A DNA stretch of 64,000 nucleotides from Eubacteriaceae bacterium Marseille-Q4139 (GCA_018223415.1 JAGTTQ010000001.1:2557498-2621497); one strand, 5' to 3'; positions 5,798 through 50,735 are shown, counted from the first letter of the stretch. Notes: generated by a model from the sequence alone, not told the origin. Program-made: numbers and translations.

Positions 5798-5814
5798 ATG
5801 TAGCATAACGAGAA

Positions 5815-14318: not shown

Positions 14319-14391
14319 GGAGGCATAGCTCAGCTGGGAGAGCACCTGCATCACACGCAGGGGGTCGCAGGTTCGAGTCCTGTTGTCTCCA
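14319..14391 (+). tRNA. tRNA-Val (anticodon CAC)
   Basis: hand-folded cloverleaf: acceptor GGAGGCA/UGUCUCC, D stem GCUC/GAGC, anticodon stem CCUGC/GCAGG, loop AUCACAC, T loop UUCGAGU. Confidence 0.85.
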
Positions 14392-24321: not shown

Positions 24322-25026
24322 ATGGAACAGATTAACATTCTTGTGGTGGACGACGAAAAGGAAATTGCAGATCTGGTGGAAATTTATCTTGTCAGCGACG
24401 GATATAAAGTATTTAAGGCCAACAACGCCCAGGACGGGCTGGAGCTTTTGGAAAAAGAGGAGATCCATCTCGTGCTCCTCGATATCATGATGCCGGGAAT
24501 GGACGGCCTGGAGATGTGCCGGAAAATCCGCGAAACCAACAACATCCCGATCATCATGCTAAGCGCAAAATCCACGGATCTCGACAAAATCCTGGGCCTG
24601 GGAACGGGCGCGGACGACTACGTGGTAAAGCCGTTTAATCCGCTGGAGCTGACGGCCAGGGTCAAGTCACAGCTCAGACGCTACACACAGCTAAACCCCA
24701 ACAGCAACACGGGGCAGAATGTGAAGAACGAGATCGCAATCCGCGGCCTTACCATCAACAAGGACAATCACAGGGTAGTCGTTTACGGCGAAGAAATCAA
24801 GCTGACGCCGATTGAATTCGATATCCTGTACCTGCTCGCCTCCAATCCCGGACGTGTGTTCAGCACGGATGAGATCTTTGAAAAGGTGTGGAATGAAAAG
24901 GTCTACGAGGCCAACAATACCGTTATGGTACATATCCGCCGCCTCCGCGGAAAAATGAAGGAGGACACCCGCCAGAATAAGATCATCACAACGGTTTGGG
25001 GGGTAGGCTATAAAATTGAAAAATGA
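24322..25026 (+). CDS. OmpR-family two-component response regulator
   Basis: receiver domain (LVVDDE...D...LLDIMMPGMDG) plus winged-helix trans_reg_C. Confidence 0.92.
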   Translation: MEQINILVVDDEKEIADLVEIYLVSDGYKVFKANNAQDGLELLEKEEIHLVLLDIMMPGMDGLEMCRKIRETNNIPIIMLSAKSTDLDKILGLGTGADDYVVKPFNPLELTARVKSQLRRYTQLNPNSNTGQNVKNEIAIRGLTINKDNHRVVVYGEEIKLTPIEFDILYLLASNPGRVFSTDEIFEKVWNEKVYEANNTVMVHIRRLRGKMKEDTRQNKIITTVWGVGYKIEK

Positions 25027-26155
25027 TATGAGCAGAAGCTTCTATGCCCGGCTGATTTTAAATATTCTGTACAGTACGGTTATCGCATGCCTGGTGGAAG
25101 TCTTTCTGATAACCAATGTCAGCATGCTCGTGGACTATCTGGAAAAGACCGAGTATGCAGGCCTGTTTCTGGTACGCATTTTCCGCGTGCAGACTATCGC
25201 ATCAATTTTTTACGTGCTGGTGGGAATCGGAGTCTTTTCCGTGTCCTTTCTCCTGCTCCAGCGAAAGACGGTGCGGTACATCGGAAAGATTTCGGCGGCA
25301 ATCCGGAATATTTCCGAGGGCGATTTGAATACCCATGTGGAAATCCTTGGAGACGATGAATTTTCGGCCATGGCCGCCAACCTGAATAAGATGGAAGCCG
25401 ACATCCAGAATCTGATGGAGAAGGAGCGGGAAGCAGAACGGACAAAAAATGAGCTGATTACCAATGTGGCCCATGATCTCAGGACGCCTCTGACCTCGAT
25501 CATCGGCTATCTGGAGCTGCTGTCCAAAAGCGGCGACAGGCTTTCGCCGGAAATGCAGAAGAAATACATTGATATTGCCTATACGAAATCAAAACGCCTG
25601 GAGAAGCTCATTGAGGATCTGTTCGGTTTTACGAAGCTGAATTATGGTAAAATTTCCATGAATGTGGGGAAATTGGATATAGTAAAGCTGTTAAGCCAGC
25701 TCCTTGAAGAGTTTTACCCGAGCTTTGCAGACAAAGATCTGACCTATGAGCTGAAAAGCAATGTGCCGGCGCAGGTGATCACTGCCGACGGGAACCTTCT
25801 GGCCCGTCTGTTTGACAACCTGATTAACAATGCAATCAAATACGGGGCGGAGGGGAAAAAGATTCTCGTGAAAATCCATTCCGACGGGGAGATCGTGACG
25901 GTTTCCGTGACGAATTACGGCTATGTGATCCCGGCGGAAGAGCTGCCTCTTATTTTCAATAAATTTTACAGGGTGGAACAGTCCCGCTCCATCTATACAG
26001 GCGGAACCGGGCTTGGGCTTGCCATTGCGAAAAACATTGTGGACATGCACGGAGGCACGATTTCCGTGGCCAGCGATTTAAACGGGACGGTTTTTACGGT
26101 GAAACTGAAGGTAAATTTTGACATTCGGAGAGAAAATTTCGGGACAATAGGATGA
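25016..26155 (+). CDS. sensor histidine kinase (two TM segments, HAMP, HisKA, HATPase_c)
   Basis: H-box NVAHDLRTPLTSIIGY; N-box LINNAIKYG; G-boxes GGTGLGLAIAK. Confidence 0.9.
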   Translation: MKNDMSRSFYARLILNILYSTVIACLVEVFLITNVSMLVDYLEKTEYAGLFLVRIFRVQTIASIFYVLVGIGVFSVSFLLLQRKTVRYIGKISAAIRNISEGDLNTHVEILGDDEFSAMAANLNKMEADIQNLMEKEREAERTKNELITNVAHDLRTPLTSIIGYLELLSKSGDRLSPEMQKKYIDIAYTKSKRLEKLIEDLFGFTKLNYGKISMNVGKLDIVKLLSQLLEEFYPSFADKDLTYELKSNVPAQVITADGNLLARLFDNLINNAIKYGAEGKKILVKIHSDGEIVTVSVTNYGYVIPAEELPLIFNKFYRVEQSRSIYTGGTGLGLAIAKNIVDMHGGTISVASDLNGTVFTVKLKVNFDIRRENFGTIG

Positions 26156-28623
26156 GTAAAGGGAAGAAGATAACGATAAAAAAACGAATCATGTGTCTCC
26201 TCCTGGCTGTTTTGTGGATACTGGCTTTTGGAATCGTGAGCTATGGGGATACAGGAGCGGCAGATGACATTTATATGGAAGTGACGCCGGTTTACGGAAA
26301 TGTCGGGCGGATCGGGAGTCATGTGCCGGTTACGGTGGAGCTGTACTGCCAGTCGCCGGCGCCTTTTGAGGGAACCATAAGCTTCTGCACGCTGGAATCC
26401 ACGGAACAGCAGCAGGAATCGGAGGTTTTTGAATACAGGTATCCCGTATCCGCAGCACCGGGAGAGACGGTGATGCTTCCGTTTTATGTGCTTCTGGGTC
26501 AGAAGAGCGGCGAAATCCTTGTGCGCTTGGAAGACAAAAGCGGGGATATGCTGCGGGAGGAGATGCTGGAGTTTCAGATTCCCAAGGACACCGGAAATCT
26601 TTACATTGGCGCGCTGGACGATCAGGTGGAAGAAATCGGATATCTGAACCGGGTGAGTCTGAATTACGGGATGCTGCGGTCGGAACTGATTCCCCTCGAC
26701 GCGTCCACACTCCCGTCGGATGTGCGCGGTCTGGATCTGCTGGATGTGCTCATCATCAATAATTTTGACACGTCCTCCCTGTCAGAAAAGCAGCAGAAGG
26801 CCGTCTGGCAGTGGATGGAATCAGGCGGAATCCTGATCTTTGGAACGGGGGAGCGGGTGTCTGATACCCTCGGCCCGTTTACGGAAAAGCTGGTGGAAGT
26901 GCCCTATGAGGCGCCGAAGCCTGCCGTCTTAAACATGGGTGCCCAGTATGGTGAAAATTCGCAGGAGGATGCTGTGATCCGCGCCGTCTGTGCAGAGCTT
27001 TCTATCCCGGGCGGGGATGAGGTCATGGCGAGCGATGAGCTTCCGATTCTCACGACCGTGAAAAAGGGAAGCGGGAAGGCTGGGATTTTTTCGCTGGATC
27101 TCGGGGATCTTTCGGATTTTGCGGGAAGAAATCCAAATTATGCGGAAAATTTCTTTGTCACGGTTGTGGGAGAGAGCGAGCTCCAGAACCTGTATTTTTA
27201 CGGCGCCTATGGGTATGATATGGCATACTGGAATGCCCAGAGTCTTGTCAATACGGGGAGTCCTGACCGGCTTCCCAATATGGCGCTTTACGGGATCGTG
27301 ATTTTTGTCTATATTCTCGCGGCAGGGCCTGGACTCTACCTGTTTCTGCGGAAAAAGGGGCTGCGGAGATATTACGGGGTGTCACTGGTTGTGTTTTCGT
27401 TCCTGGCGTCTGCGTCGGTGTACCTGATCGGAGAAAAAACCAGGTTCCGCTCGGAATTTTTCACGTATGCGGCGATCCGGGATGTGTCGGAAGAGGAGAT
27501 CTATGAGACGGCTTACCTCAATGCCAGAACGCCGGACAGCCGCCCTTATACGGTCAGGCTGAAGCCGGAATATTCGGTGACGCCCGTCACAAGGTTGGCG
27601 AGATACGACGACGAGCCGCTTGGGACCATGCAGGGGAAAGAGACGGGAAACCTGACAATGGAATACGAGCCTGAGGAAACGAAAATTACCGTGCGGAAAT
27701 CCCAGGCATTTTCTCCGAAATTTTTCAAGCTGAAAAAGCGCTCGGAAAACGAAACGGGACAGGGCATCGGAGCAGAGCTTCTCTACTTTGACGGCAGGAT
27801 TTCCGGAACCGTAACAAACCATTTTTCGTTCCCGTTAAAAAATGCGGCGCTGATCCTCTACGGCCAGGCAGTCATGATCGGGGAGCTGGGGCCGGGAGAG
27901 ACAAAGGTGCTGGACGGCAGCGAGGTGCTCACGTATCCGGCTGACATGACCTACATTCTGGCAGACAAGCTGAGCGGGGGCGATGTCTATTTTGATGTGG
28001 ACATCAGCAACGAGGAATATCTGATGGCACAGGAGAGAACAAGCCTGTATTCTTTCTATCTCTCCAATTATTACGGTGGTTTTACTCCAGAGGCGCGGAT
28101 CGCGGCTTTTGGGCCGGACGAAGATGCCTTTGGGGCATTCCTGGCTGACGAAGACTCTGCTGATGGCATGACGCTCTATACGTGCACGGTGGATCTTGTC
28201 ACAGAACAGGACGGTCTTGTCTACCGCAGCGGCCTTATGAAAACGCCGAAGGTGACGACGGGAAGCGGGAACTATTATTCCAGCTATTCGACCATGTACG
28301 GAAGCGAGCAGGTGATTTTGGAATATTATCTGGGAAGCGATATCCGGGTGGAGAAGCTATCTTTTCTTCCGGTGTCCGAAGTGTTCCTGGAAAATCTGAA
28401 ATATTACTATTTGGAACAGTTTAAAGGGGAGGCTTATTTTTACAATTACAGCACGAAAAATTATGACCAGGTGGATCTGGAGCAGGTGGATTTCTCCTAT
28501 GAGGAATTGAAAGAATACCTTTCTCCGAGCAACAGCCTGACAGTAAAATACATCAACGGCGAGAGTGAGAACGGCGCCAACGCATCGCTTCCGCTTCTGA
28601 TGGTGACAGGGAGGGAACGCTGA
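26152..28623 (+). CDS. large membrane-anchored protein (823 aa), possible GldG-like ABC-exporter accessory component
   Basis: N-terminal TM, central TM pair (~res 380-425); region LDLLDVLIINNFDTSSL...WQWMESGGILIFGTG resembles the class-I glutamine-amidotransferase-like fold of ABC_transp_aux proteins; start overlaps the kinase stop and its stop overlaps the ABC ATPase start. Confidence 0.55.
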   Translation: MSKGKKITIKKRIMCLLLAVLWILAFGIVSYGDTGAADDIYMEVTPVYGNVGRIGSHVPVTVELYCQSPAPFEGTISFCTLESTEQQQESEVFEYRYPVSAAPGETVMLPFYVLLGQKSGEILVRLEDKSGDMLREEMLEFQIPKDTGNLYIGALDDQVEEIGYLNRVSLNYGMLRSELIPLDASTLPSDVRGLDLLDVLIINNFDTSSLSEKQQKAVWQWMESGGILIFGTGERVSDTLGPFTEKLVEVPYEAPKPAVLNMGAQYGENSQEDAVIRAVCAELSIPGGDEVMASDELPILTTVKKGSGKAGIFSLDLGDLSDFAGRNPNYAENFFVTVVGESELQNLYFYGAYGYDMAYWNAQSLVNTGSPDRLPNMALYGIVIFVYILAAGPGLYLFLRKKGLRRYYGVSLVVFSFLASASVYLIGEKTRFRSEFFTYAAIRDVSEEEIYETAYLNARTPDSRPYTVRLKPEYSVTPVTRLARYDDEPLGTMQGKETGNLTMEYEPEETKITVRKSQAFSPKFFKLKKRSENETGQGIGAELLYFDGRISGTVTNHFSFPLKNAALILYGQAVMIGELGPGETKVLDGSEVLTYPADMTYILADKLSGGDVYFDVDISNEEYLMAQERTSLYSFYLSNYYGGFTPEARIAAFGPDEDAFGAFLADEDSADGMTLYTCTVDLVTEQDGLVYRSGLMKTPKVTTGSGNYYSSYSTMYGSEQVILEYYLGSDIRVEKLSFLPVSEVFLENLKYYYLEQFKGEAYFYNYSTKNYDQVDLEQVDFSYEELKEYLSPSNSLTVKYINGESENGANASLPLLMVTGRER

Positions 28624-29573
28624 TGCTTAAGATCCGGGGACTGAAAAAGAAATTTAAAAACTTCCCGGCGTTGGACGGCCTTGACATGGACATTGAGGAA
28701 GGCGCCCTCTATGGTTTTGTGGGGCCGAACGGAGCCGGAAAGACGACGGCCATCAAGATTATTACAGGCCTTCTCCGGCCGGATGAAGGTACGGTGCAGA
28801 TTGCAGGAAAGGATGCCCTGCGGGCCGGCCGTGAGATCAATAAGGAATTCGGCTATGTGCCGGATGAGTTCGGCATGTATGACAACCTGCGGGTTGCAGA
28901 ATATATGGAATTTTTTGCAGCCTGCTATGGAATTACGGGGCTTGTGGCGAGAAAACGCTGCGGAGAGCTTTTAGAGCAGGTGAAGCTGGAGGAAAAAGCG
29001 GATTTCTATGTGGACAGCCTGTCCAGGGGAATGAAGCAGAGACTCTGCTTGGCGCGGGCCCTGATCCATGATCCGCGGCTTCTCGTCCTGGACGAGCCGA
29101 CCTCCGGCATGGACCCGCGGACCAGGATGGAGTTTAAAGAGCTTTTAAAGGAGCTCTGCGCCGAGGGGAAAACCATTTTAGTCAGCTCCCACATCCTGTC
29201 GGAGCTTTCGCAGATGTGCACGGATATCGGGATCATCGATGCGGGAAAAATTGTCTTAAGCGGGAACATGGCGGAAATCTTAAGAAAAGTCAACGCCTCC
29301 AACCCGCTTCTGATTTCCGTCTGCGGCGGGCAGGAGCAGGCCGTAAGGCTTCTCAGGCAGGATCCACGCGTCCAGACCATTTCCATCCGCGGCGAAGACA
29401 TTGTCGTCAGCTTTTCCGGCCAGAAGGAAGAGGAGGCGGAGCTTTTAAAGACGCTGGTGGACGGCGGGATTCCCGTGAGCGGCTTCTTGAGGGAGCACGG
29501 GGATCTGGAGACGATTTTCATGCAGCTTACCAATCATGACCTGGAGACGGAGGTGATCGCCGGTGAAGGATAA
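28623..29573 (+). CDS. ABC transporter ATP-binding protein (ABC-2 / CcmA-NatA type)
   Basis: Walker A GPNGAGKTT, signature LSRGMKQR, Walker B LVLDEPTSGMD. Confidence 0.92.
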   Translation: MLKIRGLKKKFKNFPALDGLDMDIEEGALYGFVGPNGAGKTTAIKIITGLLRPDEGTVQIAGKDALRAGREINKEFGYVPDEFGMYDNLRVAEYMEFFAACYGITGLVARKRCGELLEQVKLEEKADFYVDSLSRGMKQRLCLARALIHDPRLLVLDEPTSGMDPRTRMEFKELLKELCAEGKTILVSSHILSELSQMCTDIGIIDAGKIVLSGNMAEILRKVNASNPLLISVCGGQEQAVRLLRQDPRVQTISIRGEDIVVSFSGQKEEEAELLKTLVDGGIPVSGFLREHGDLETIFMQLTNHDLETEVIAGEG

Positions 29574-30462
29574 TCCTGTACTTTTGCGGGAACTGATTGT
29601 GCGGAGCAGAAGCTTCCGCTTCCCGCTCATTGTTTTCGTGTTCAACGGGATTCTTGCGGCTGCGGCCATGTTAAACATGTTTTCTGTTGTGGCCCAGATC
29701 CGGATTTCAGCCAATATCCAGTATGCCAGCTTTCTTAAACTGTACGTTTTTGTGGCGACGCTGGAATTTCTGCTTTTAATGTTTATCATGCCGGCGCTTA
29801 CGTCGGCCGGAATCAGCGGAGAGCGGGAGCGTCAGACGCTGGATCTGCTCTTTACGACGCAGATGACGTCCTGGCAGATTATCATGGGAAAGCTGATATC
29901 GGCATTCAGCCAGCTTCTTCTCCTTGTGGTATCCAGCTTCCCGGTGCTGCTTCTGACTTTCGTCTATGGAGGCGTAGATTTTGCGGATCTGGCCCTTCTT
30001 CTAGTGTGCTTTGTGACGGTTGCCATGTTCACGGGAGGCGTCGGGATTTTGTCGTCGTCCTTTATGAAGCGGTCGAATTTTTCCAATGTCTGCACGTATG
30101 GGATTCTTCTGACCGTCGTAGTCGGGACGTATATGCTCAACCAGTTTGCGCTCCATATGTCACAGCTAAAGATCAACGGGCTGACGCCGGAGCCAGGGGA
30201 GATGCTTCCGAAGGCGGATTCCGGCGCCGCCGTGTATCTGCTTTTGTTAAACCCGGTGGTGACGTTTTCTGAGATCATGGAGAATCAGGTGTCCGGCTCC
30301 GAAAGCATCCTGTCTCTGGGGCAGTTTCTCGGCTCCAGGCCGGAAAATCTCGTGACGGAGCACTGGACGCTTTTCAGCCTCGCCGTCCAGCTTGTGCTGG
30401 CTGCCATTTTTGTGAGTGCTGCCGTATATTTCCTGAATCCTGCAGGGAGAGACAAACGATAA
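29563..30462 (+). CDS. ABC-2 family transporter permease
   Basis: six predicted TM helices; overlaps the ATPase gene by 11 nt. Confidence 0.8.
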
Positions 30463-30475
30463 CGGAGGAAAAACA

Positions 30476-31312
30476 ATGTTTCAGATTGGATGCCATCTTT
30501 CCTGTGCAAAGGGCTTTGCGGCCATGGGAAAAGATGCCTTGAAAATACATGCGACGGCTTTCCAGTTTTTCACCAGGAACCCACGCGGCGGAAGCGCGAA
30601 GGCCATCGACGAAGACGATGTGGCGGCGTTCCTCAAAATAAAGGAGGAAGCCGGGATCGGGACGCTGGTGGCTCATGCGCCCTATACGCTGAATGCCTGT
30701 GCCGCGGAGGAGCGGATCCGGGAATTTGCGAGAAATACCATGGAGGATGACTTAAAGCGGATGGAATATCTGCCGGGGAACCTCTATAATTTCCATCCCG
30801 GAAGCCACGTAAAGCAGGGAATGGAGACAGGAATCCGCCTGATTGCGGATCAGTTAAACGGGCTTTTAAAGAAAGAACAGACGACGACGGTGCTCTTAGA
30901 AACCATGTGCGGAAAGGGCAGTGAAGTCGGCGGACGGTTCGAGGAGCTTAAGGAGATTTTAGACCGGGTGGAGCTTAAGGAAAAAATGGGCGTCTGCCTG
31001 GATACCTGCCATGTCTGGGACGGCGGGTACGATATTGTACATGACCTGGACGGCGTGCTTTCTGAGTTTGACCGGGTGGTGGGCCTTTCCAGGCTGAAGG
31101 CCATCCATTTAAACGACAGCCAGAACCCGCTCGGCGCCAGGAAAGACCGTCATGCGCGGATCGGGGAGGGACATATCGGGTTAGACGCCATGGTGAGGAT
31201 CATCAACCATCCGGCCCTGAAAGACCTGCCGTTCTGCCTCGAGACGCCCAACGAGCTGGACGGCTATGCGAGGGAGATTGCGCTTTTAAAATCAAAGCGT
31301 GTGGAACCGTAA
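30476..31312 (+). CDS. nfo: deoxyribonuclease IV (apurinic/apyrimidinic endonuclease IV)
   Basis: xylose-isomerase-like TIM barrel with Nfo signatures ([27 protein letters not shown]). Confidence 0.9.
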
Positions 31313-31345: not shown

Positions 31346-32656
31346 ATGGGAATTATAAAAGCAGCAGTCAGATCCATTTCAGGCGGTCTGGCAGATCAGT
31401 GGCTCGAGGTGATTGAGGCCGGCGGAATGAGCGATTCTACCGTGTTTGCGCCCGGCGTCCTCACGAGAAGAGGAGAAAATGTGAAGGGGACAGCCGGAAC
31501 GGTGTCCAACGGCTCCATGATCCGGGTGTATCCGAACCAGTTTATGATGCTGGTGGACGGCGGAAAAGTCGTGGACTACACGGCTGAGGAGGGCTATTAT
31601 ACGGTGAACAATTCCTCCATGCCGTCGCTTTTTAACGGGGAATTCGGGGAAACCTTAAAGGAGTCCTTTAACCGGATCCGGTTCGGCGGCGAATCGCCCT
31701 TTGAGCAGAAGGTCTATTTTATCAACCTTCAGGAAATCAAGGGAATCAAGTTCGGCACCAGGACGCCGGTCAACTATTTTGACAATTTTTACAACGCAGA
31801 GCTGTTTCTCAGGGCCCACGGCACGTATTCCATCAAAATTACGGATCCGCTCCGTTTTTATGCGGAGGTGATTCCGAAGAACCGCGAATATGTCAACGTG
31901 GAGGACATCAACGAGCAGTATTTAAGCGAATTTTTGGAGGCCTTCCAGACGGCCATCAACCAGATGTCTGCCGACGGGACGCGGATTTCCTTCGTGACGT
32001 CCAGAGGGCGCGAGCTTGGAAAATACATGGCAAATGTGCTGGATGAGGACTGGCGGAAGATGCGCGGAATGGAGATTCAGTCGGTGGGAATTGCAAGCAT
32101 TTCCTACGACGAGGAGTCCCAGGAGCTCATCAACTTGAGAAACCGCGGCGCCATGTTAAGCGACGCCTCCATCCGGGAGGGCTATGTGCAGGGCCGGATC
32201 GCAGAGGGAATCGGCGAGGCAGGCTCCAATGCAGGCGGCGCCATGGCCGGCTTCATGGGGATCGGCATGGGAATGCAGACCGGCGGAGGCTTCATGGGGG
32301 CGGCATCGGCGGCCAATATGCAGCAGATGCAGATGGAGAACCAGAGAAGAATGGCCGGAAACGGAATGGGCGCCGGCGCCATGGGGACACAGGCCGGAAA
32401 CGGAATGGGCGCTGGCGCCATGGGAACGCAGGCCGGAGCTGGCATGGCAAATCCGGCGGCGGGAATGGCCGGCATGCAAAGCCCTGGTGCCGGAGCGGCC
32501 GGGACGTGGACGTGTTCCTGCGGGACGATCAACAGCGGGAAATTCTGTTCGGAATGCGGAAGCCCGAGACCGGCGGTGTCGGGGACATGGACGTGCTCCT
32601 GCGGAACTGTGAACAGCGGAAAATTCTGCTCGGAGTGCGGGAAGCCAAGACCATAA
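31346..32656 (+). CDS. SPFH/Band-7-domain protein (COG4260-like) with Gly/Met/Ala-rich linker and two C-terminal zinc ribbons
   Basis: N-terminal SPFH-like domain; tandem zinc ribbons TWTCSCGT(I/V)NSGKFCSECG x2; internal 39-bp tandem duplication (GNGMGAGAMGTQA x2). Confidence 0.8.
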   Translation: MGIIKAAVRSISGGLADQWLEVIEAGGMSDSTVFAPGVLTRRGENVKGTAGTVSNGSMIRVYPNQFMMLVDGGKVVDYTAEEGYYTVNNSSMPSLFNGEFGETLKESFNRIRFGGESPFEQKVYFINLQEIKGIKFGTRTPVNYFDNFYNAELFLRAHGTYSIKITDPLRFYAEVIPKNREYVNVEDINEQYLSEFLEAFQTAINQMSADGTRISFVTSRGRELGKYMANVLDEDWRKMRGMEIQSVGIASISYDEESQELINLRNRGAMLSDASIREGYVQGRIAEGIGEAGSNAGGAMAGFMGIGMGMQTGGGFMGAASAANMQQMQMENQRRMAGNGMGAGAMGTQAGNGMGAGAMGTQAGAGMANPAAGMAGMQSPGAGAAGTWTCSCGTINSGKFCSECGSPRPAVSGTWTCSCGTVNSGKFCSECGKPRP

Positions 32657-32676
32657 TCCCGTAAGAGGAGGAGCCT

Positions 32677-33705
32677 ATGGCACTTGTAAACTATAAATGT
32701 CCCAACTGCGGCGGAGGCCTGAAATTTGATCCGGCCACCCAGTCCTTTGAGTGCGAATACTGCCTCTCCTCGTTCACAGAGCAGGAGATGGAGGAGCTGG
32801 CGAAAAAGGCGGAGGAGAAGGCAGGAGCTTCGCCGGCGGTTGTCTGTACCTGCCCCAACTGCGGCGCAGAGCTGGTGGCGGAGGAGACGACGGCCGCGGC
32901 CTTCTGTTATTACTGCCACAGCCCGGTCATCGTTTCAGGCCGGCTTTCCGGGGAATTCCTGCCGGATTATGTGATCCCCTTTGCGCTGGACCGGAAGCGG
33001 GCGCTGGAAATTTTTTCCGGCTGGATTGGGAAGAAGAAATTCCTTCCGCGGGCCTTTTTTTCGGAAAGCCAGATCGAGAAATTTACAGGCGTCTATTTCC
33101 CGTATCTGATGTATAGCTGCCAGGCAGAAGGGAAGATGACGGCGGAGGCGGAAAAGCTGCGGAGCTGGACGGCCGGAAACATCCGCTATACGGAGCATAA
33201 AAAATACCAGGTGGAGCGGGCCGGGGAGCTGGACGTGAAAAACATGGCCAGGAATGCCCTCTCCAGAGCCGACCATGAGCTGGTGGAAGGCGTCCTGCCC
33301 TTTGACATGGAGAAGCTGGAACCGTTCCGCATGGAATACTTATCCGGCTTCCAGGCGGAAAAGCGCGACATGGACAGCCATACATATACAAACGAGGTGG
33401 AGGCGGAGGTGCGCGCCTACGCGGAGGAGAACCTGCGGGGGAGCATGGGCGGCTATGATTCAGTGCGGGTAAAGGATCAGAGCGTTGAGATCCGGAACGC
33501 TTCATGGAAATATGCCCTCCTTCCTGTGTGGGTCATGACATACCGCGACCGGAAAAAGGATAAGCTTTACTATTTTGCAATGAATGGACAGACGGGGAAA
33601 ATAAACGGCGAGCTCCCTGTGGATAAAGGAAAGCTGGCGGCGCTGTTCGGCGCTGTGTTTGTGCCTGTCTTCCTGTTTCTTTTGGCAGGGGGGTGGCTGA
33701 TTTGA
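32677..33705 (+). CDS. zinc-ribbon protein with two N-terminal CxxC-N-CxxC ribbons and a C-terminal TM anchor, hypothetical
   Basis: YKCPNCGG..FECEYC and CTCPNCGA..FCYYC; C-terminal hydrophobic LAALFGAVFVPVFLFLLAGGWLI; RBS AGGAGGAG. Confidence 0.75.
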   Translation: MALVNYKCPNCGGGLKFDPATQSFECEYCLSSFTEQEMEELAKKAEEKAGASPAVVCTCPNCGAELVAEETTAAAFCYYCHSPVIVSGRLSGEFLPDYVIPFALDRKRALEIFSGWIGKKKFLPRAFFSESQIEKFTGVYFPYLMYSCQAEGKMTAEAEKLRSWTAGNIRYTEHKKYQVERAGELDVKNMARNALSRADHELVEGVLPFDMEKLEPFRMEYLSGFQAEKRDMDSHTYTNEVEAEVRAYAEENLRGSMGGYDSVRVKDQSVEIRNASWKYALLPVWVMTYRDRKKDKLYYFAMNGQTGKINGELPVDKGKLAALFGAVFVPVFLFLLAGGWLI

Positions 33706-34613
33706 GAAAATGGAGAAAAGGGATCGCGGCCTGCCTTTTTTCGGCCGTTCTGATTCTTCCTGCCGGGCCTGCGCTTGCAAGGGTTTCGCTGGCCGGAGCT
33801 GAGAGCACCTATGACAGGGTCTATGACATGGCGGGGATTTTTTCCGACGAGGAGGAAGCAGCTCTTTCTGCGGCCATCGAAAGCCAGCGGACGGATATGG
33901 ACATGGATCTGGCCATTGTGACGGCCGGCGACGCCATGGGCTACGGCGGTCAGGAATTTGCCGACTATTTTTATGATGACAACGGGCTGGGAGAGGGCTC
34001 GGACAAAAGCGGTGTCCTGCTTCTTTTGGATATGGACAACCGTGAGATTGCCGTGTCCACCTCGGGAAAGATGATCCGATATCTCACGGATGTGCGGGTG
34101 GAGACCATCCTGGACGACGTGTATGAAAGGATGGTGGACGAAGAGTATTATGAGGCGGCCTCCGTGTTCCTTTCGGATGTGGAAGTCTGCTATGAAAACG
34201 GGATTGCAGGCGATCAGTTCACCTACGACCAGGAGACTGGCAGGGTGAGCGTTTACCGCCGGATTACCGTGTTTGAGTTCCTGACGGCGCTTCTTCTGGC
34301 GGCTGTCTGCGGGGGCGCGGCCGTGCTGTCCGTGTCCAAGAGTTATAAAAAGGGCAGGAAAGACGACCGCATGGCGGCCAATTTCCGGCTGTCTTACCGG
34401 AAGGACAGCGCGTTCCGGCTTGGCTCCGGCCTTGGCGAGGTGCTCCTTGGAAGCTATATTACCCAGCAGGTGATCCGCTCGGCCCAGAACCGCGGCGGCG
34501 GGCCCGGCGGGCGATCCGGCGGCTTCTCCGGGAGAGGTCTTTCCGGCGGCGGACGTTCTACGGTTCACAGGACGGGCGGCCGCATCCATGGCGGCGGGAG
34601 CCGGAAATTTTAG
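33693..34613 (+). CDS. TPM-domain (YgcG / TLP18.3 / Psb32-like) membrane protein with cytoplasmic Gly-rich tail
   Basis: signal/TM, then TPM-like domain (YDMAGIFSDEEEAALSAAIE...LAIVT...GVLLLLDMDNREIAVSTSG), TM, GGGPGGRSGGFSGRGLSGGGRS tail; overlaps the upstream gene by 13 nt. Confidence 0.75.
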   Translation: MADLRKWRKGIAACLFSAVLILPAGPALARVSLAGAESTYDRVYDMAGIFSDEEEAALSAAIESQRTDMDMDLAIVTAGDAMGYGGQEFADYFYDDNGLGEGSDKSGVLLLLDMDNREIAVSTSGKMIRYLTDVRVETILDDVYERMVDEEYYEAASVFLSDVEVCYENGIAGDQFTYDQETGRVSVYRRITVFEFLTALLLAAVCGGAAVLSVSKSYKKGRKDDRMAANFRLSYRKDSAFRLGSGLGEVLLGSYITQQVIRSAQNRGGGPGGRSGGFSGRGLSGGGRSTVHRTGGRIHGGGSRKF

Positions 34614-34643: not shown

Positions 34644-35558
34644 ATGAAAATAGAAAAGATCGGAATTATTGGAAAGGGAGCCCTGGGCGTGATGTACGGG
34701 AAATGGCTGGCCGGCCGTCTGGGAAACAGCCAGGTGTTTTTCCTGGCAGATGAGGCGCGGGCAGAGGCATACCGGGCGTCGGAGACATACTCAAACGGAG
34801 AGCCCTGCGGTTTCCAGTACCGGACGCCGGCAGAGGCGGAGCCGGTGGATCTGATTATTTTTGCCGTGAAGTTCCTTGGGATGGAGGCGGCTATTGAAAC
34901 GGCGCGGCCGTTTGTCGGGGAGAAGACGGTTCTCCTTTCCGTGTTAAACGGCGTATTGAGCGAGCAGATGCTGGAAAAGGAGTTCGGCGCCGGGCACGTG
35001 GTTTACTGCTGCGTTCAGGGCATGGATGCCGGGAAAGACGGGAATGCGGTGACGTACCGGAACATGGGATATATTTCCGTGGGAAATCCGGACGGGAGCA
35101 GGGATGAGAAGCTTGCGGCCGTGACAGAGCTGTTTGACAGAACCGGGCTTTCCTATGAGGTTCCGGCGGACATCAGACGGCAGATGTGGAGCAAGCTGAT
35201 GCTCAATGACGGCGTTAATCAGGTGACGGCCATTTACAAGGCGCCGTACCGGCTTGTGCAGAAGGAAGGCGAGGCCAGAACCATGATGGTGGAGGCCATG
35301 CGCGAGGTGATGCGGACGGCTGCTTTCGAGGAGGTGGAGCTGACGGAGGCGGACATCGCTTCGTGGCTTGACCTTCTGGATCATCTGGATCCCGACGGGC
35401 GGACGTCCATGTGCCAGGATATCATGGCCGGCCGCAGGACAGAAAAGGAGCTGTTTTCGGGAACGATCCGGCGTCTGGCGGCGGAGCACGGGATTTCGGT
35501 GCCGGTCAATGATTTTTTATATGAGAAGCTGCAGGAGCTTGAGGAAGGGATGAAATAG
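34644..35558 (+). CDS. panE: 2-dehydropantoate 2-reductase (ketopantoate reductase, ApbA/PanE family)
   Basis: N-terminal Rossmann motif IGIIGKGALG; ApbA-family length and C-terminal domain. Confidence 0.8.
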   Translation: MKIEKIGIIGKGALGVMYGKWLAGRLGNSQVFFLADEARAEAYRASETYSNGEPCGFQYRTPAEAEPVDLIIFAVKFLGMEAAIETARPFVGEKTVLLSVLNGVLSEQMLEKEFGAGHVVYCCVQGMDAGKDGNAVTYRNMGYISVGNPDGSRDEKLAAVTELFDRTGLSYEVPADIRRQMWSKLMLNDGVNQVTAIYKAPYRLVQKEGEARTMMVEAMREVMRTAAFEEVELTEADIASWLDLLDHLDPDGRTSMCQDIMAGRRTEKELFSGTIRRLAAEHGISVPVNDFLYEKLQELEEGMK

Positions 35559-35562
35559 CAGC

Positions 35563-35973
35563 ATGAAGATTATGGTGATAGACGGCCAGGGCGGCAAGAT
35601 GGGGAAAAGCATCGTCGAGCAGATGAAAAAGGCGTTTCCCCAGGATGAGATCCTGGCCATAGGGACGAACAGCACCGCGACGGCGGCCATGTTAAAGGCA
35701 GGAGCCGACGAGGGCGCGACAGGGGAGAATCCGGCGATTGTGGGAAGCGGGACAGCGGACGTGATCGTAGGGCCCCTGGGCATCGTGATTGCCGATTCCC
35801 TTCTCGGGGAGATCACGCCGGCCATGGCGGCGGCCATCGGGAGAAGCCGTGCAAAGAAGGTGCTGCTCCCGGTAAACCGCTGCCAGCATTTTGTTGTGGG
35901 CCTTAAGGAGCTGCCGCTCGGGGAGTACGTGCGGCTGGCCGTGGAAGAGGTGGCCAGACTCCGGGACGAGTAG
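35563..35973 (+). CDS. conserved hypothetical protein (DUF3842-like)
   Basis: 136-aa ORF 4 nt after panE, same strand; MKIMVIDGQGG..IGTNSTATAAMLKAGAD pattern. Confidence 0.5.
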   Translation: MKIMVIDGQGGKMGKSIVEQMKKAFPQDEILAIGTNSTATAAMLKAGADEGATGENPAIVGSGTADVIVGPLGIVIADSLLGEITPAMAAAIGRSRAKKVLLPVNRCQHFVVGLKELPLGEYVRLAVEEVARLRDE

Positions 35974-40190: not shown

Positions 40191-41363
40191 ATGAAGCTGT
40201 TTCATTTATCGGATTTGCATATCGGAAAACAGCTCCATGGATTCAGCCTGATCGAAGATCAGACGTATATCCTTGGACGGATTTTAAAAGAGGCGGAGCA
40301 GAGGAAGCCGGACGTGATCGTGATTGCCGGGGATGTCTACGACAAGTCGGTGCCGTCTGCGGAGGCCGTTGAGGTATTTGACGGCTTCCTCACGTCCCTT
40401 GCCGCCATGGAGCAGGGGCTGGAGGTGTTTATCGTCAGCGGGAACCATGATTCCCAGGAGCGGCTGGCCTTTGGGAGCCGTCTGTTCGAGAAAAACAGGA
40501 TATTTATTGCAGGCATGGCGCCGGGAAAGGAAAATCCCAGGGTGCAGAAGCTGGTACGAAAGGATAAGGAGGGAGAGGTGAATTTTTATCTTCTTCCTTT
40601 TTTGCGCCCTTCCTTCATCCGTGAAATCGAAGGGATGGAGCAGGTAAAGACATACGATGAGGCCGTACGGGCCGTGATCGCGCAGATGGAGCCGGATTTT
40701 TCCGCGCGGAACGTCCTCGTCTGCCATCAGTTTTTTACATGGAACGGAAAAAGCCCGGAGCGGTCGGATTCCGAGACCGTCTCCGTCGGCGGCCAGGACA
40801 ACGTGGAGGTCTCGGCTGTGGAGACGTTTGACTATGTGGCGGCCGGCCATATTCACCGTCCACAGTCCGTCGGGGGAGACCATGTCCGCTACTGCGGCTC
40901 GCCGTTAAAATATTCGGTTTCGGAGGCGGGACAGGAGAAAGGGATTCTGGAAGTGACGCTCGGGAAGAAAGGCGACGTGACGGTGGAAAAAATTCCTCTG
41001 GTGCCTCTCAGGGATGTGAGGAAAATCAGGGGAAAGCTCTCGGAGCTGATTTCCGAAGAGACGCTCTCGGCAGCAGATCCCAAAGATTTTGTCAGTGCCG
41101 TCCTGACGGATGAGGAGGAGCTTTACGAGCCGGGACGCGTGCTTTCAAGGCATTATCCGAACCTTTTGGAGTGGACGGTGGAAAACAGCAGGACGCGGCG
41201 GGAATTTTCTGAAGAAGAGCTGCCGGCGGAAAAAAAGAGCCTTCCGGAGCTTTTTGAGGAATTTTACATACAGATGCAGGGCGCAGAAATGAAGGAAAAC
41301 CAGAGGAAAGCCATGGAAGAAATTTTCCTGAGACTGGAGGCAGGAGGGGAGGAGGAAGCATGA
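40191..41363 (+). CDS. sbcD: exonuclease SbcD (Mre11-type nuclease)
   Basis: calcineurin-like phosphoesterase motifs (HLSDLHIG, GDVYD, GNHD). Confidence 0.92.
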   Translation: MKLFHLSDLHIGKQLHGFSLIEDQTYILGRILKEAEQRKPDVIVIAGDVYDKSVPSAEAVEVFDGFLTSLAAMEQGLEVFIVSGNHDSQERLAFGSRLFEKNRIFIAGMAPGKENPRVQKLVRKDKEGEVNFYLLPFLRPSFIREIEGMEQVKTYDEAVRAVIAQMEPDFSARNVLVCHQFFTWNGKSPERSDSETVSVGGQDNVEVSAVETFDYVAAGHIHRPQSVGGDHVRYCGSPLKYSVSEAGQEKGILEVTLGKKGDVTVEKIPLVPLRDVRKIRGKLSELISEETLSAADPKDFVSAVLTDEEELYEPGRVLSRHYPNLLEWTVENSRTRREFSEEELPAEKKSLPELFEEFYIQMQGAEMKENQRKAMEEIFLRLEAGGEEEA

Positions 41364-44300
41364 AACCGATTTGTCTGACAATGTGTGCCTTCGGCTCCTA
41401 TGGCGGAAAGACGGTCATTGATTTTACGAAGGCCGGCCGGGGCGTTTTCCTGATTACCGGGGATACCGGGGCGGGGAAGACGACGATTTTTGACGGGATT
41501 ACCTTCGCCCTTTACGGGGAGACAAGCGGAGGAAAACGGGACGGCAGGATGATGCGGAGCCAGTATGCCGGGTCTGAAGACGAGACCTATGTGGAGTTTA
41601 CATTTTCCTATCGCGGAGAGATCTACACGGTTTTCAGGAGCCCGGAATACATGAGAGAGAAGAAGCGGGGAAGCGGCCTTGTGAAGGCGGCGGCCAGGGT
41701 GGAGCTGACGCTTCCAGACGGGACGGCTTTCCGGGGGAAGAACCGGGAGACGGATAAAAAAATCTGTGAGATCATGGGAATCGACAGGGAGCAGTTTACG
41801 CAGATTTCCATGATTGCCCAGGGAGATTTCCTGCGGCTCCTTCATGCCAGCTCTGAAAACAGGAAGAAGATTTTTTCCACAATTTTCCACACCGGGCCCT
41901 GCCGGGACGCTGAAGAGGAGCTGAACAAAAAGAGAAAGCAGTTAAAGGATCAGATTCAGGCGGGCGAGGAACGGCTGAGGGCCCATGTCCGGTCGATCCG
42001 ACTTACGGAGGAAGCGGGAAGCGAAGACGAAGCCCGGCTGGAGAAGCTTTGCCGGGAAGAGGTTTTGCCTCCGGGAGAGGCGTCAGAATTTTTATCTGAG
42101 CTTCTTTGTAAGGAACAGGGACAGCTTCGGACGGCCGACCGGGAGTTAGCGGAGCTGGATGATAGCCTCCAGAAGGCGTTGGAGGAAAACGGAAGGCTTT
42201 TAAAGGCAGCGGAACAGGCCCGCCAGTACGAAGAGAAAAAGGCAGAGCTTAGGAGGGAAGAAGAAAAAGAGGCGCATTACACGGCATGGAAGGCCAGATA
42301 TGAGGAAGCCGCGAAGGCATATGGGATGAGGCCCTATGAGAGCCGGTATCTGGAGGCGGAGCGGCAGACGGCGGCTGCCGAAAGAAGCAGGGAGGCCGCT
42401 GAGAAGGCGCTTTCGGAGGCCGAAGCCGGATTTTCGGAGGCAAAACAGGTACTGCTTGCCGCCGAAGAAGAGTTTGGAAGAAAAGAGCCGCTATACAGGA
42501 CGGAGCTTTTAAAGCTGGAGCAGGAGGAAAAGGACTGGAGACGGAAGGCAGAGCTGGAAACGGAGGCGGCAGAGCGGAGAGCGCAGTCGGAAGAGGAAGC
42601 AAAACGTGGGCTCGCGTTAAAGGAAAGGAAGGAGAAGCTGGAATCGGCCATCGGCGAGTGCGAGAGAAAGATACAGGCCTTTTCAGAGGCGGCTCCCATT
42701 CTTGCGGAGCTTGAGCATTCCTTAAAGGAGCTGGCCGCATTTGAGGAAACGGCAGCCAGGCTGAAAGAAGAGCGGAAGGCGCTGGAAACGAGAAAGATAC
42801 GTCTGGAAGCCATGAAGCGGGAGCAGGAAAAACGGATACAGGCCTTTTCGGAGGCAGAGCGGCTGTACCAGGAGCTTCAGGAGCAGTTTTTCCGGGAACA
42901 GGCCGGGATCCTTGCCCGCGACAGGTTAAAAGACGGCTTCCCCTGCCCGGTCTGCGGAGCCGTCAGCCACCCGGCCCCGGCGGCCCTGGCAGAGAGCGCG
43001 CCCACGGAAGAAGAAGTGAAGCGTGCATCCGCAAAGCGGGAGGAGAAAAGGGGACTCTGTGAAGCGCTGGGGACGGAGATTACGAAGGAAATGACGGGAA
43101 TCTCCGAAAAGGAGCGCCAGCTCTGCGAGGAAGAAAAACGGCTTCCGGAGAATATGGCGGAGAAAAAGGAGACGATGGAGCGCCGGCGGGCAGAGCTTCT
43201 GCTCCTGAAGAAAGAGGGAACGGACGCGGCTGAGACCGGAAAGTCCCTGGGAGAAGAGCTGGAAAGAACGAAAAAGAGCATGCAGGACTGCCGTCTTTCC
43301 GAGGAGCTGGAAAAAGCAGCGGTTTTGAAGCTGGAGGAAGAAATAGGGAAGCTGGAAAAGCAGCTTTTCTTCCGCTCGAAAGAGGCGCTGCTTACGGAAA
43401 AAGAACGGCTGGAGCAGGAGCTTCGCCGGAAGAAGGCAGAGACGGAAGCGGCCAGGCAGAAGGAAAAACAGGCCGCGGAGACGGCTTCCTCCGCCAGACA
43501 GGCGTGCCGTTCGGCAGAAGAGCACCTGATTTTAAGGAAAAGAGAGCAGGAAGAGGCAGGAAGCACATGGAACCAGGTCTGGAAGGACAGCGGCTTTACA
43601 AGAGAGCAGTACACGGCATCCCTGGCATGGAGAGAGACAGAGGAGGCCAGGGAGGCGGGAGCGCAGACGGAGGAATATTTCCGCAGGTTGGCAGAGCTTA
43701 AGGCGGCCGTTAAGACGCTGGAGACCGGTCTTTTGGAGGCCTCGGAGGAAAGGGCCGGGGAGCTCCGGGAAGAGATCCGGAAGCTTCGGGAGAAGAAGGG
43801 ATCCCTGGAGAAAAAGCGGGACGGGATTTCCGCTGCCGTCCAAAACCACGAAAGCATCCTTTTGCAGATGGAGACAGAGGAACGGGAGAGCGGCGGGCTC
43901 ATCGAGGCCTTCCTTTTATACGACGGCCTCTGGCAGACAGCCAGCGGGAACCTGAAAGGAAAGGTAAAGATTGACTTTGAGACATATGTCCAGAGACAGT
44001 ATTTTGAGAAAATCCTGACGGCGGCCAACCGGAGATTTCTGAAGCTGTCCGACGGAAAACTGAAATTAAAATGCAGACAGCTTGAGGACATGGGCGGCCA
44101 GGGGCATTCCGGCCTGGAGCTGAATGTCTACGTGATGGCGACGGGAAAGGAGCGGGATGTGAAAACCCTGTCCGGCGGCGAGTCGTTCCTTGCGTCCCTG
44201 TCCCTGGCGCTGGGACTTTCCGACGTGGTGCAGAGCCAGGCGGGCGCCGTGAGAATGGAAGCCATGTTTGTGGACGAGGGCTTCGGCGCTCTGGACGACG

Positions 44301-50644: not shown

Positions 50645-50735
50645 GGAGATATAGCGAAGAGGTCGTAACGCGGCGCACTCGAAATGCGTTTGTCGGCTAA
50701 TACCCGGCACGAGGGTTCGAATCCCCCTATCTCCG
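50645..50735 (+). tRNA. tRNA-Ser (anticodon CGA), class II with long variable arm
   Basis: 91 nt; acceptor GGAGAUA/UAUCUCC, 3-bp D stem, anticodon stem GCGCA/UGCGU with loop CUCGAAA, 5-bp variable-arm stem, T loop UUCGAAU, discriminator G. Confidence 0.8.

What the first reader, a model, noticed from the sequence alone, without database searches (positions are those of the whole stretch)
31346..34613. Tightly linked SPFH / double zinc-ribbon / TPM(YgcG) membrane gene trio
Three consecutive, overlapping or closely spaced genes are involved. The first is a cytoplasmic SPFH (Band-7, COG4260-type) protein with a Gly/Met-rich linker and two C-terminal zinc ribbons. The second has two N-terminal CxxC..CxxC zinc ribbons, an unknown central domain and a C-terminal TM tail anchor. 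The third is a TPM/YgcG-domain protein with an extracytoplasmic TPM domain, a TM helix and a cytoplasmic Gly-rich tail. Gaps are 20 nt and a 13-nt overlap, implying co-translation. SPFH proteins scaffold membrane microdomains, and TPM proteins have been linked to membrane-stress and phosphatase modules. I do not know this specific three-gene combination as a characterised system. The trio sits at the tail of a long co-directional run (two-component system, GldG-like protein, ABC-2 exporter, nfo) and may be an envelope-stress or membrane-repair module.
Basis: partly seen in the sequence, partly recalled or inferred. Interest (0 to 1): 0.6.

Follow-up and report, generated by a model that had tools for sequence, protein, structure and literature searches.

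The report
PspA-less, reordered SamGHI/YdjGHI membrane-stress trio
The three genes are real and form a conserved unit, but they are not an unknown system: they are a reordered relative of the Bacillus subtilis YdjGHI/SamGHI membrane-stress module, which here and in many gut Clostridia lacks its usual PspA partner gene.

Summary
Three co-directional genes (31346-32656, 32677-33705, 33693/33702-34613) encode a soluble SPFH protein with two C-terminal zinc ribbons, a tail-anchored double-zinc-ribbon protein, and a TPM membrane protein. The novelty claim is wrong. All three are homologues of B. subtilis-group YdjI, YdjG and YdjH (renamed SamI, SamG and SamH), a studied sigma-W membrane-stress module. 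Support: BLASTP E=8e-65 over the full length of the zinc-ribbon protein; hhalign probability 99.5 % (SPFH) and 99.9 % (TPM).

Two defining features of the Bacillus operon are absent. The gene order is I-G-H rather than G-H-I. No pspA was found in the 64-kb window or in about 1 Mb of related loci, whereas every Bacillus-type locus examined has pspA directly upstream.

The trio keeps its order in 28 dereplicated lineages and in six more distant contexts whose flanks are unrelated, so it is an autonomous module. In the window's own clade it is fused to a conserved block: a VanRS-like two-component system, an 823-aa membrane protein and an ABC-2 exporter.

The most likely function is that a SamG/SamH-like membrane complex recruits, and is restrained by, the SPFH protein in envelope-stress sensing, without a PspA encoded next to it. 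I rate it a new variant of a known kind, of moderate interest.

The parts
31346..32656 (+). Gene A: soluble SPFH protein, homologue of YdjI/SamI (436 aa). SPFH (Band_7_1) domain at residues 53-263, Gly/Ala/Met-rich linker at about 286-385, two C-terminal CxC...CxxC zinc ribbons.
   Evidence: ORF. Pfam PF13421 E=4e-21. No TM segment; Cys motifs and linker composition. BLASTP to B. stercoris YdjI E=4e-14. hhalign family vs family probability 99.5 %, E=2.6e-23. AAGGAGG lies 8 nt upstream of the ATG.
32353..32437 (+). 39-nt tandem repeat (2.2 copies) inside the Gly/Met-rich linker of A, encoding AGNGMGAGAMGTQ twice.
   Evidence: TRF score 149, 93 % matches; protein sequence.
32501..32652 (+). 81-nt tandem duplication (1.9 copies) that encodes the two zinc ribbons of A.
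   Evidence: TRF score 218, 83 % matches. At least two ribbons in nearly all window-type homologues. Bacillus YdjI has one CPNC...CPNC ribbon.
32677..33705 (+). Gene B: tail-anchored protein, homologue of YdjG/SamG (342 aa). Two N-terminal CxxC...CxxC zinc ribbons, a central alpha+beta (PepSY/NTF2-like) domain at about 100-311, a conserved FAxNGQTGK motif and a C-terminal TM helix at 320-338.
33693..34613 (+). Gene C: bitopic TPM protein, homologue of YdjH/SamH. The start is GTG 33693 (306 aa) or, more likely, TTG 33702 (303 aa, TTGA overlap with the stop codon of B). Signal/TM segment, extracytoplasmic TPM domain, TM helix, cytoplasmic basic and Gly/Arg/Ser-rich tail.
   Evidence: ORF. Junction sequence. 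Public gene call of 303 aa. Pfam PF04536 E=4e-23. Topology. BLASTP to YdjH E=3e-13. hhalign probability 99.9 %, E=2.2e-37 over the full length.
24322..26155 (+). Clade-specific partner: OmpR-family response regulator (24322-25026) and HAMP-HisKA histidine kinase (25016-26155). They are VanR/VanS-like but score below the family cut-offs. The kinase has two TM segments separated by a loop of only about 23 aa.
   Evidence: Pfam and NCBIfam. TM segments. Conserved upstream of the trio in the lineages with enough flank. Absent in six more distant contexts.
26152..30462 (+). Clade-specific partner: 823-aa three-TM membrane protein with no family assignment (26152-28623), DrrA/GldA-like ABC ATPase (28623-29573) and GldF-like ABC-2 permease (29563-30462).
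   Evidence: Weak DUF4350 hits in 9 of 17 homologues. Weak GH42 GATase1-like PDB hits. Conserved directly upstream of the trio in 21 of 21 lineages of this clade that have enough flank.
30476..31312 (+). Endonuclease IV-like gene (AP_endonuc_2) between the ABC-2 permease gene and gene A. It is an optional insert, not a core part of the module.
   Evidence: Pfam E=1e-53. Present in 10 and absent in 11 of the 21 lineages where the junction can be judged.

Best explanation
The trio is a divergent subfamily of the YdjGHI/SamGHI membrane-stress module of Firmicutes, with permuted gene order and no pspA encoded beside it.

Shown here:
- Each of the three proteins is homologous over its domain architecture to YdjI, YdjG and YdjH.
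- The three genes form an autonomous, strongly conserved, tightly packed unit. The ZnR and TPM genes usually overlap by 4 nt.
- No pspA lies nearby, in contrast to every Bacillus-type locus examined.

Inferred from the B. subtilis experiments:
- B is tail-anchored, with its zinc ribbons and PepSY/NTF2-like domain in the cytoplasm.
- C has its TPM domain outside the cell, one TM helix and a Gly/Arg-rich tail inside.
- B and C form a membrane-integral complex that senses envelope or membrane perturbation.
- That complex recruits the soluble SPFH protein A to the membrane. There A oligomerises and acts as a scaffold and as a brake on signalling by the B/C complex.

Because PspA is not co-encoded, I take the core job of the module to be this PspA-independent sensing and scaffolding role.

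In the window's clade the trio is probably co-transcribed with, and controlled by, a VanRS-like two-component system and an ABC-2 exporter. Intergenic gaps there are 0-56 nt. That would make the trio part of one envelope-stress or antimicrobial-response operon.
For: Homology:
- B vs YdjG: 32 % identity end to end, E=8e-65.
- C vs YdjH: E=3e-13; hhalign probability 99.9 %, E=2.2e-37, covering signal peptide, TPM domain, TM helix and tail.
- A vs YdjI: E=4e-14; hhalign probability 99.5 %, E=2.6e-23.
- Each Bacillus protein hits exactly one ORF in the window.

Synteny: SPFH upstream in 26 of 26 lineages, TPM downstream in 25 of 25, plus six distant contexts with unrelated flanks.

PspA: an HMM built from four diverse PspAs finds every Bacillus-type locus at about 1e-122 to 1e-130. 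It finds nothing at E<=1 in 1.03 Mb of window-type sequence. Precomputed Pfam labels show no PspA_IM30 within 8-10 kb in the window-type loci.

Mechanism in Bacillus: YdjG and YdjH are needed for membrane foci of YdjI, and two-hybrid assays show G-H, H-I and I-PspA interactions. SamI restrains SamGH signalling, and PspA is dispensable for that phenotype.

Tight packing with the upstream genes.
Against: - No experiment exists for this subfamily. Identity to the Bacillus proteins is only 23-32 %, so the interactions may not carry over.
- Absence of pspA was tested only within 64 kb of the window and 8-10 kb around relatives. A pspA elsewhere in the genome could not be checked.
- The TPM and Band_7_1 families are large, so orthology of A and C, as opposed to paralogy, rests mainly on linkage to the clear YdjG homologue.
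- Co-transcription with the two-component/ABC genes is inferred from spacing alone. The promoter and terminator scans were uninformative: 11 vs 6.5+-2.4 and 16 vs 13.3+-3.7 expected.
Confidence: 0.7

Rival explanations
1. The trio does the same job as in Bacillus. It is a membrane anchor that recruits the ESCRT-III-like PspA for membrane repair, with pspA simply encoded elsewhere in the genome.
For: In B. subtilis, PspA foci depend on YdjI, YdjG and YdjH. Ravi et al. propose that abbreviated band-7 operons and pspA-less operons use PspA encoded elsewhere. Pairing of SPFH with ESCRT-III is ancient.
Against: The window-type clade has lost, or never had, cis-linkage to pspA in every one of about 34 lineages. 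The Bacillus-type clade keeps it in every locus examined, including clostridial members. Such a clean split suggests a functional difference. In Bacillus, SamGHI also has PspA-independent roles.
Confidence: 0.3
2. In the window's clade the trio is an accessory sensing or regulatory unit of the adjacent VanRS-like two-component system and ABC-2 exporter. The B/C complex, restrained by A, would feed a signal to the loop-less histidine kinase, as LiaF does for LiaS or BceAB for BceS.
For: The RR-HK-p823-ABC-ABC2 block lies directly upstream of the trio in 21 of 21 lineages of this clade with enough flank. Those lineages range from 46 to 99 % identity to B, and gaps are 0-56 nt. The kinase has only about 23 aa between its two TM helices. 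The 2026 preprint models SamGH as a sensor held in check by SamI and compares it to LiaF/LiaS.
Against: Six of six more distant window-type trios lack the block and sit in unrelated contexts, so the trio does not need it. The linkage could be inherited synteny within one family. An unrelated gene (nfo) is inserted between the block and the trio in about half of the lineages.
Confidence: 0.2
3. The module is chiefly enzymatic. The extracytoplasmic TPM domain of C would act as a phosphatase or nucleotidase on an envelope substrate, with A and B as regulators.
For: [quoted passage not shown] C's TPM domain matches Pfam at E=4e-23 and PDB BA41 (5anp) at E=2e-5.
Against: Ravi et al. describe the phosphatase assignment as contested, with a rival role in assembly or repair of membrane complexes. 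No substrate or activity is known for YdjH. I did not test conservation of catalytic residues.
Confidence: 0.07
4. The trio is an anti-phage defence system or a mobile-element cargo.
For: The trio appears in many unrelated genomic contexts.
Against: There are no significant PADLOC hits; the best is E=0.015 over 33 residues. No relative was found in 2.9 million viral contigs. No integrase or other mobility genes flank it in the window clade, and the neighbours are housekeeping genes. GC content of 0.53-0.60 is similar to the rest of the window.
Confidence: 0.03

Closest known systems
B. subtilis pspA-ydjGHI (= pspA-samGHI) operon (Scholz et al. 2021, PMC8581546; Baur et al. 2026 preprint, 10.64898/2026.02.06.704340)
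   Same: The same three protein families with the same architectures: a soluble Band_7_1 SPFH protein with a low-complexity linker and C-terminal zinc ribbon; a double-ZnR, PepSY/NTF2-like, tail-anchored protein; and a signal-TPM-TM-Gly-rich-tail protein. All three genes are adjacent and co-directional, and the ZnR and TPM genes overlap by 4 nt.
   Different: - Gene order is I-G-H, not G-H-I.
- No pspA lies upstream or anywhere within reach.
- Identity is only 23-32 %.
- The SPFH protein is about 100 aa longer, with a longer Gly/Ala/Met linker and two or three zinc ribbons instead of one.
- The Bacillus sigma-W promoter context is replaced by a VanRS-like two-component/ABC-2 block in this clade, or by assorted contexts elsewhere.
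Bacillus-type YdjGHI in Clostridia-class organisms (Epulopiscium MAG, Sporanaerobacter, Tissierellales)
   Same: The same class of organisms carries the same three families.
   Different: Those copies are 67-70 % identical to Bacillus YdjG and keep the pspA-G-H-I order. The window type is therefore a separate subfamily, not just the clostridial version of the operon.
E. coli PspABC / B. subtilis LiaIH-LiaFSR envelope-stress systems
   Same: The logic may be the same: a membrane sensor held in check by a peripheral regulatory subunit and linked to envelope stress (analogy drawn). In the window clade there is also adjacency to a two-component system.
   Different: There is no sequence homology to PspB/C or LiaF/I, as stated in the preprint. 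There is no PspA/LiaH in the locus.
SPFH-NfeD pairs (QmcA-YbbJ), HflK/C-FtsH and flotillin operons (FloT-YuaF/YqiJ)
   Same: An SPFH-family scaffold is encoded next to dedicated membrane partner proteins.
   Different: The SPFH protein here has no membrane anchor of its own and belongs to the Band_7_1 subfamily. Its partners are ZnR/PepSY-like and TPM proteins. No NfeD, FtsH or YuaF-type partner appears among the neighbours.

Membership tests
YdjGHI/SamGHI module | YdjG-type protein: two N-terminal zinc ribbons, a YpeB-related/NTF2-like central domain and a C-terminal TM segment | tested here: met
YdjGHI/SamGHI module | YdjH-type protein: N-terminal signal/TM segment, TPM domain, TM helix, low-complexity cytoplasmic tail | tested here: met
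   PF04536 E=4e-23. Topology. BLASTP E=3e-13. hhalign probability 99.9 %, E=2.2e-37 over the full length.
YdjGHI/SamGHI module | YdjI-type protein: soluble Band_7_1 SPFH domain, low-complexity linker, C-terminal zinc ribbon | tested here: met
   PF13421 E=4e-21. No TM segment, Gly/Ala/Met linker, Cys motifs. BLASTP E=4e-14. hhalign probability 99.5 %, E=2.6e-23.
YdjGHI/SamGHI module | The three genes are adjacent, co-directional and conserved as a unit | tested here: met
   SPFH upstream in 26 of 26 lineages and TPM downstream in 25 of 25. Six further distant contexts. ZnR/TPM NTGA overlap in 19 of 28 representatives.
YdjGHI/SamGHI module | Gene order ydjG-ydjH-ydjI | tested here: not met
   The order here and in all window-type loci is SPFH(I)-ZnR(G)-TPM(H). 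Bacillus-type loci are G-H-I.
YdjGHI/SamGHI module | pspA (PspA_IM30) encoded directly upstream in the same operon | tested here: not met
   No hit in the window (phmmer, E<=10). No hit in 1.03 Mb of window-type loci plus the window (HMM, E<=1). Positive controls score 1e-122 to 1e-130. Pfam labels show none.
YdjGHI/SamGHI module | G-H, H-I and I-PspA protein interactions; G/H-dependent membrane foci of the SPFH protein; induction by envelope or alkaline stress (sigma-W in Bacillus) | not testable with these tools
   Known only from B. subtilis experiments. Testing needs two-hybrid assays, microscopy and transcriptomics in a Lachnospiraceae host or a heterologous one.
Classical Psp system (PspA with PspB/PspC/PspF) | A PspA_IM30 protein in the locus | tested here: not met
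   The preprint also states that SamGH has no homology to PspBC.
VanRS vancomycin-resistance two-component system (upstream partner) | Scores at or above the NCBIfam VanR/VanS cut-offs | tested here: not met
   VanR model 323 bits against a cut-off of 350. VanS model 299 bits against a cut-off of 400. The pair is VanRS-like only. No van ligase genes appear among the neighbours.
GldAFG-type ABC-2 exporter (upstream partner) | GldG/DUF4350-type accessory protein alongside GldA-like ATPase and GldF-like permease | tested here: inconclusive
   ATPase 224 bits to GldA (cut-off 403). Permease 27 bits to GldF (cut-off 289). The 823-aa window protein has no Pfam hit, but 9 of 17 homologues hit DUF4350 weakly, best E=3.6e-4. 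Weak GATase1-like PDB hits at E=0.03.
Known anti-phage defence systems (PADLOC-DB) | A significant match to any defence-system protein model | tested here: not met
   The best hits are E=0.015-0.047 over short stretches. No relatives in viral contigs.
SPFH-NfeD operon | An NfeD-domain gene adjacent to the SPFH gene | tested here: not met
   The neighbours are nfo and the ZnR protein. No NfeD family appears in the Pfam results for the neighbours.

The most novel reading that the evidence does not exclude
The window-type trio is a PspA-independent SamGHI-class membrane-stress sensor. That would imply that SamGHI, not PspA, is the ancestral core of the module.

In a large clade of gut Lachnospiraceae the trio has been wired into a single operon with a histidine kinase that has almost no extracellular loop, an ABC-2 exporter and an uncharacterised 823-aa membrane protein. 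The SPFH-braked B/C complex would then act as the stimulus-perceiving accessory of the two-component system. This would be a new way for SPFH scaffolds to gate bacterial signal transduction and antimicrobial-response export.
Probability: 0.15. Interest if true: 0.65.

Novelty: new variant of a known kind. Interest (0 to 1): 0.38.

Why it matters
The Bacillus work leaves one question open: is YdjGHI/SamGHI mainly a PspA anchor, or a stress sensor and scaffold in its own right? This finding bears on that question.

A large natural subfamily keeps all three proteins tightly linked but never carries pspA next to them. The YdjG family as a whole has 6,685 representatives at 50 % clustering, 1,354 of them at E<=1e-30. 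The subfamily is abundant in human-gut Clostridia. This is comparative evidence for a PspA-independent core function, and it gives a natural system in which to test that.

The clade-specific fusion with a two-component system and an ABC-2 exporter suggests concrete experiments on envelope-stress and antimicrobial responses of gut commensals.

It also corrects annotation. Public records name these proteins only as 'TFIIB-type zinc ribbon-containing protein' and 'SPFH domain-containing protein'.

Tried and rejected
- PADLOC scan of the three proteins: nothing significant. The defence reading was rejected.
- Viral-contig scan with the YdjG alignment: no relatives.
- Promoter and terminator consensus scans: counts close to the shuffled expectation, so they do not define the transcription unit.
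- PDB sequence searches. The B profile hits only generic zinc ribbons. A has no solved relative. C hits only TPM domains of unknown function.
- afdb50 fold search: the library was unavailable.
- My third homology search used a profile of mid-distance representatives to reach clades intermediate between the window type and the Bacillus type. It returned mostly the same Lachnospiraceae-like clade. Contexts of members that are 33-40 % identical to B therefore remain unsampled.
- Literature search for DUF4350/ABC-2/two-component: nothing relevant.
- Rfam: no RNA element near the trio.
- I considered that the two-component/ABC linkage was a universal feature of the subfamily. I rejected this after six of six more distant contexts lacked it.
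- I considered that the window protein was simply the clostridial orthologue of Bacillus YdjG. I rejected this because clostridial members of the Bacillus type exist at 67-70 % identity and carry pspA.


Full report
**1. Observation**

- A: 31346-32656, 436 aa
- B: 32677-33705, 342 aa
- C: 33693-34613, 306 aa from a GTG start

Pfam confirms the domains. A carries Band_7_1 (PF13421, E=4e-21, residues 53-263). B shows only zinc-ribbon matches at its N-terminus. C carries TPM_phosphatase (PF04536, E=4e-23, residues 43-163).

- A has no TM segment. Its linker is rich in Gly/Ala/Met (71 of 110 residues). It has two CxC...CxxC ribbons.
- B has two CxxC...CxxC ribbons and a single C-terminal TM at 320-338.
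- C has an N-terminal signal-like hydrophobic segment, a TM at 196-214 and a Gly/Arg/Ser-rich tail.

Shine-Dalgarno-like motifs precede A and B.

The only correction concerns the B/C junction. Besides the GTG at 33693, which gives a 13-nt overlap, there is a TTG at 33702 that forms a TTGA overlap with the stop codon of B. Public gene calls use the 303-aa version. The exact 306-aa sequence is absent from the protein collection, while A and B are present as MBR9954360/61 of 'Eubacteriaceae bacterium Marseille-Q4139'.

**2. Identity**

The combination recalled the B. subtilis pspA-ydjGHI operon, and I tested that rather than assuming it. A published ydjG primer (PMC8581546) served as an exact-match probe against one genome per species. 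It retrieved four B. subtilis-group loci. Locus L002 (B. stercoris) carries pspA, ydjG, ydjH and ydjI in that order, with a 4-nt ydjG/ydjH overlap.

Pairwise BLASTP results:

| Window protein | Bacillus protein | Result |
|---|---|---|
| B | YdjG | 32 % identity over 334 of 342 residues, E=8e-65 |
| C | YdjH | E=3e-13 |
| A | YdjI | E=4e-14 |

Searched against all ORFs of the window, each Bacillus protein hits exactly one ORF, and PspA hits none.

Profile-profile comparison of window-type against Bacillus-type families strengthens the two weaker links.
- SPFH proteins: probability 99.5 %, E=2.6e-23.
- TPM proteins: probability 99.9 %, E=2.2e-37, aligned from the signal peptide through the cytoplasmic tail.

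The architectures also match the published descriptions. [quoted passage not shown] They describe YdjH as TPM plus a low-complexity segment, and the SPFH protein as band-7 plus a C-terminal ZnR (PMC11237479).

**3. What differs from the known system**

Two defining features of the Bacillus operon are not met. The order is I-G-H instead of G-H-I, and there is no pspA.

I collected 85 related loci from contig look-ups and a metagenome scan. I dereplicated them at 90 % identity of the B homologue into 28 lineages, which are 46-99 % identical to the window B.
- The SPFH gene is directly upstream in 26 of 26 lineages with enough flank.
- The TPM gene is directly downstream in 25 of 25.

An HMM built from four diverse PspAs recovers every Bacillus-type locus at 1e-122 to 1e-130. 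It finds nothing, even at E<=1, in 1.03 Mb of window-type sequence including the whole window.

This is not simply 'the clostridial version' of the operon. A search with Bacillus YdjG finds members 67-70 % identical in Epulopiscium, Tissierellales and Sporanaerobacter. Their loci read PspA_IM30 - ZnR - TPM - Band_7_1, with unrelated flanks.

The window type is therefore a separate subfamily of a large family: 6,685 representatives at 50 % clustering, 1,354 of them at E<=1e-30.

Window-type SPFH proteins are about 100 aa longer than YdjI and nearly always carry two or three C-terminal ribbons. In the window, the second ribbon is an 81-nt tandem duplication.

**4. Context**

In the window's clade the trio is the tail of a conserved block:
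- an OmpR-type response regulator;
- a HAMP-HisKA kinase (both VanR/VanS-like but below the NCBIfam cut-offs);
- an 823-aa three-TM protein without any family;
- a DrrA/GldA-like ABC ATPase;
- a GldF-like ABC-2 permease.

All 21 lineages with enough upstream sequence have this block. The nfo gene lying between the permease gene and gene A is present in 10 of them and absent in 11. Gaps are 0-56 nt, so co-transcription is likely but unproven. The consensus promoter and terminator scan is uninformative.

Six more distant window-type members, 43-49 % identical to B, keep the order SPFH-ZnR-TPM. In one of them the TPM gene is cut by the contig end. Their flanks are entirely different and the block is missing. 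One has a 585-nt upstream gap, which suggests its own promoter.

The trio is therefore an autonomous module, and the two-component/ABC linkage is specific to one clade.

The 823-aa protein is only weakly DUF4350/GATase1-like.

**5. Mechanism**

Shown here: homology, architecture, topology, tight conserved linkage and lack of pspA beside the trio.

Inferred from B. subtilis:
- YdjG and YdjH are membrane proteins required for membrane foci of soluble YdjI. Two-hybrid assays give G-H, H-I and I-PspA contacts (PMC8581546).
- A 2026 preprint models SamGH as a membrane stress sensor restrained by SamI, with PspA dispensable for that phenotype.

I therefore propose that B and C form a membrane complex. 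The TPM domain would sit outside the cell, with the zinc ribbons, the PepSY-like domain and the Gly/Arg tail inside. The complex would recruit the SPFH protein A, which scaffolds and damps signalling.

The consistent absence of pspA in this subfamily points to a PspA-independent core role. However, a pspA elsewhere in the genome could not be excluded with the tools available.

Rival readings are given separately with their confidences:
- a PspA anchor, with pspA encoded elsewhere in the genome;
- an accessory sensor of the adjacent two-component system;
- an enzymatic TPM module;
- an anti-phage defence system. PADLOC and the viral contigs were negative.

**6. Novelty and verdict**

The papers I read discuss PspA-free contexts only for PspC, Toastrack and flotillin operons, not for the ydj-type trio. 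I did not examine their web resources.

The finding is thus neither an unknown system nor a plain new member. It is a permuted, PspA-less variant of a known module. It is widespread in gut Clostridia and carries a clade-specific fusion to a two-component/ABC-2 operon.

Interest is moderate. A specialist would not be greatly surprised. The variant does, however, make the question of whether SamGHI is a PspA anchor or an autonomous sensor directly testable.

Noticed in passing
window 26152-28623 (+): An 823-aa protein with three TM segments (13-31, 374-392, 409-427) and no Pfam or NCBIfam family. It always lies between the VanS-like kinase gene and the ABC ATPase gene in this clade. Nine of 17 homologues hit DUF4350 weakly, and a profile search gives weak GATase1-like (GH42 beta-galactosidase) PDB hits. 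It is an uncharacterised conserved partner of an ABC-2 exporter.
   Followed up: partly
window 30476-31312 (+): An endonuclease IV-like gene (AP_endonuc_2) sits inside an otherwise envelope-related operon, between the ABC-2 permease gene and the SPFH gene. It is present in 10 and absent in 11 of the related lineages that can be judged. A DNA-repair gene is an odd passenger in this operon.
   Followed up: partly
window 25016-26155 (+): The VanS-like histidine kinase has two TM helices (9-27, 51-69) separated by only about 23 residues. It thus resembles intramembrane-sensing kinases, which usually depend on accessory membrane proteins to perceive the stimulus.
   Followed up: no
window 32353-32437 and 32501-32652 (+): There are two in-frame tandem repeats inside the SPFH gene. 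A 39-nt unit (2.2 copies) lies in the Gly/Met linker, and an 81-nt unit (1.9 copies, 83 % matches) encodes the two zinc ribbons. Linker length and ribbon number (one to three) vary among homologues.
   Followed up: partly
window 34644-35973 (+): A PanE/ApbA-like reductase gene and a DUF3842 gene follow the trio after 30 nt and 4 nt, with no recognisable terminator. They are present downstream in only some lineages, so they are probably not part of the module.
   Followed up: partly
window 5812-5896 (+); 14319-14391 (+); 50645-50735 (+): A ZMP/ZTP riboswitch (62 bits, gathering score 39) and two tRNA genes were found in the whole-window Rfam scan. They are unrelated to the trio.
   Followed up: no
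L095 6107-6853 and 10400-12287: In one distant locus a 248-aa gene with weak Tim44-like and Zn_ribbon_3 hits lies directly upstream of the SPFH gene. Two classical Band_7 genes lie just downstream on the opposite strand. This may be a local cluster of SPFH systems.
   Followed up: no
window 40191-44464 (+); L101 13103-17381: SbcD and SbcC genes lie a few kb downstream of the trio in the window and also in a distant locus whose other flanks differ. This may be coincidence or residual synteny.
   Followed up: no
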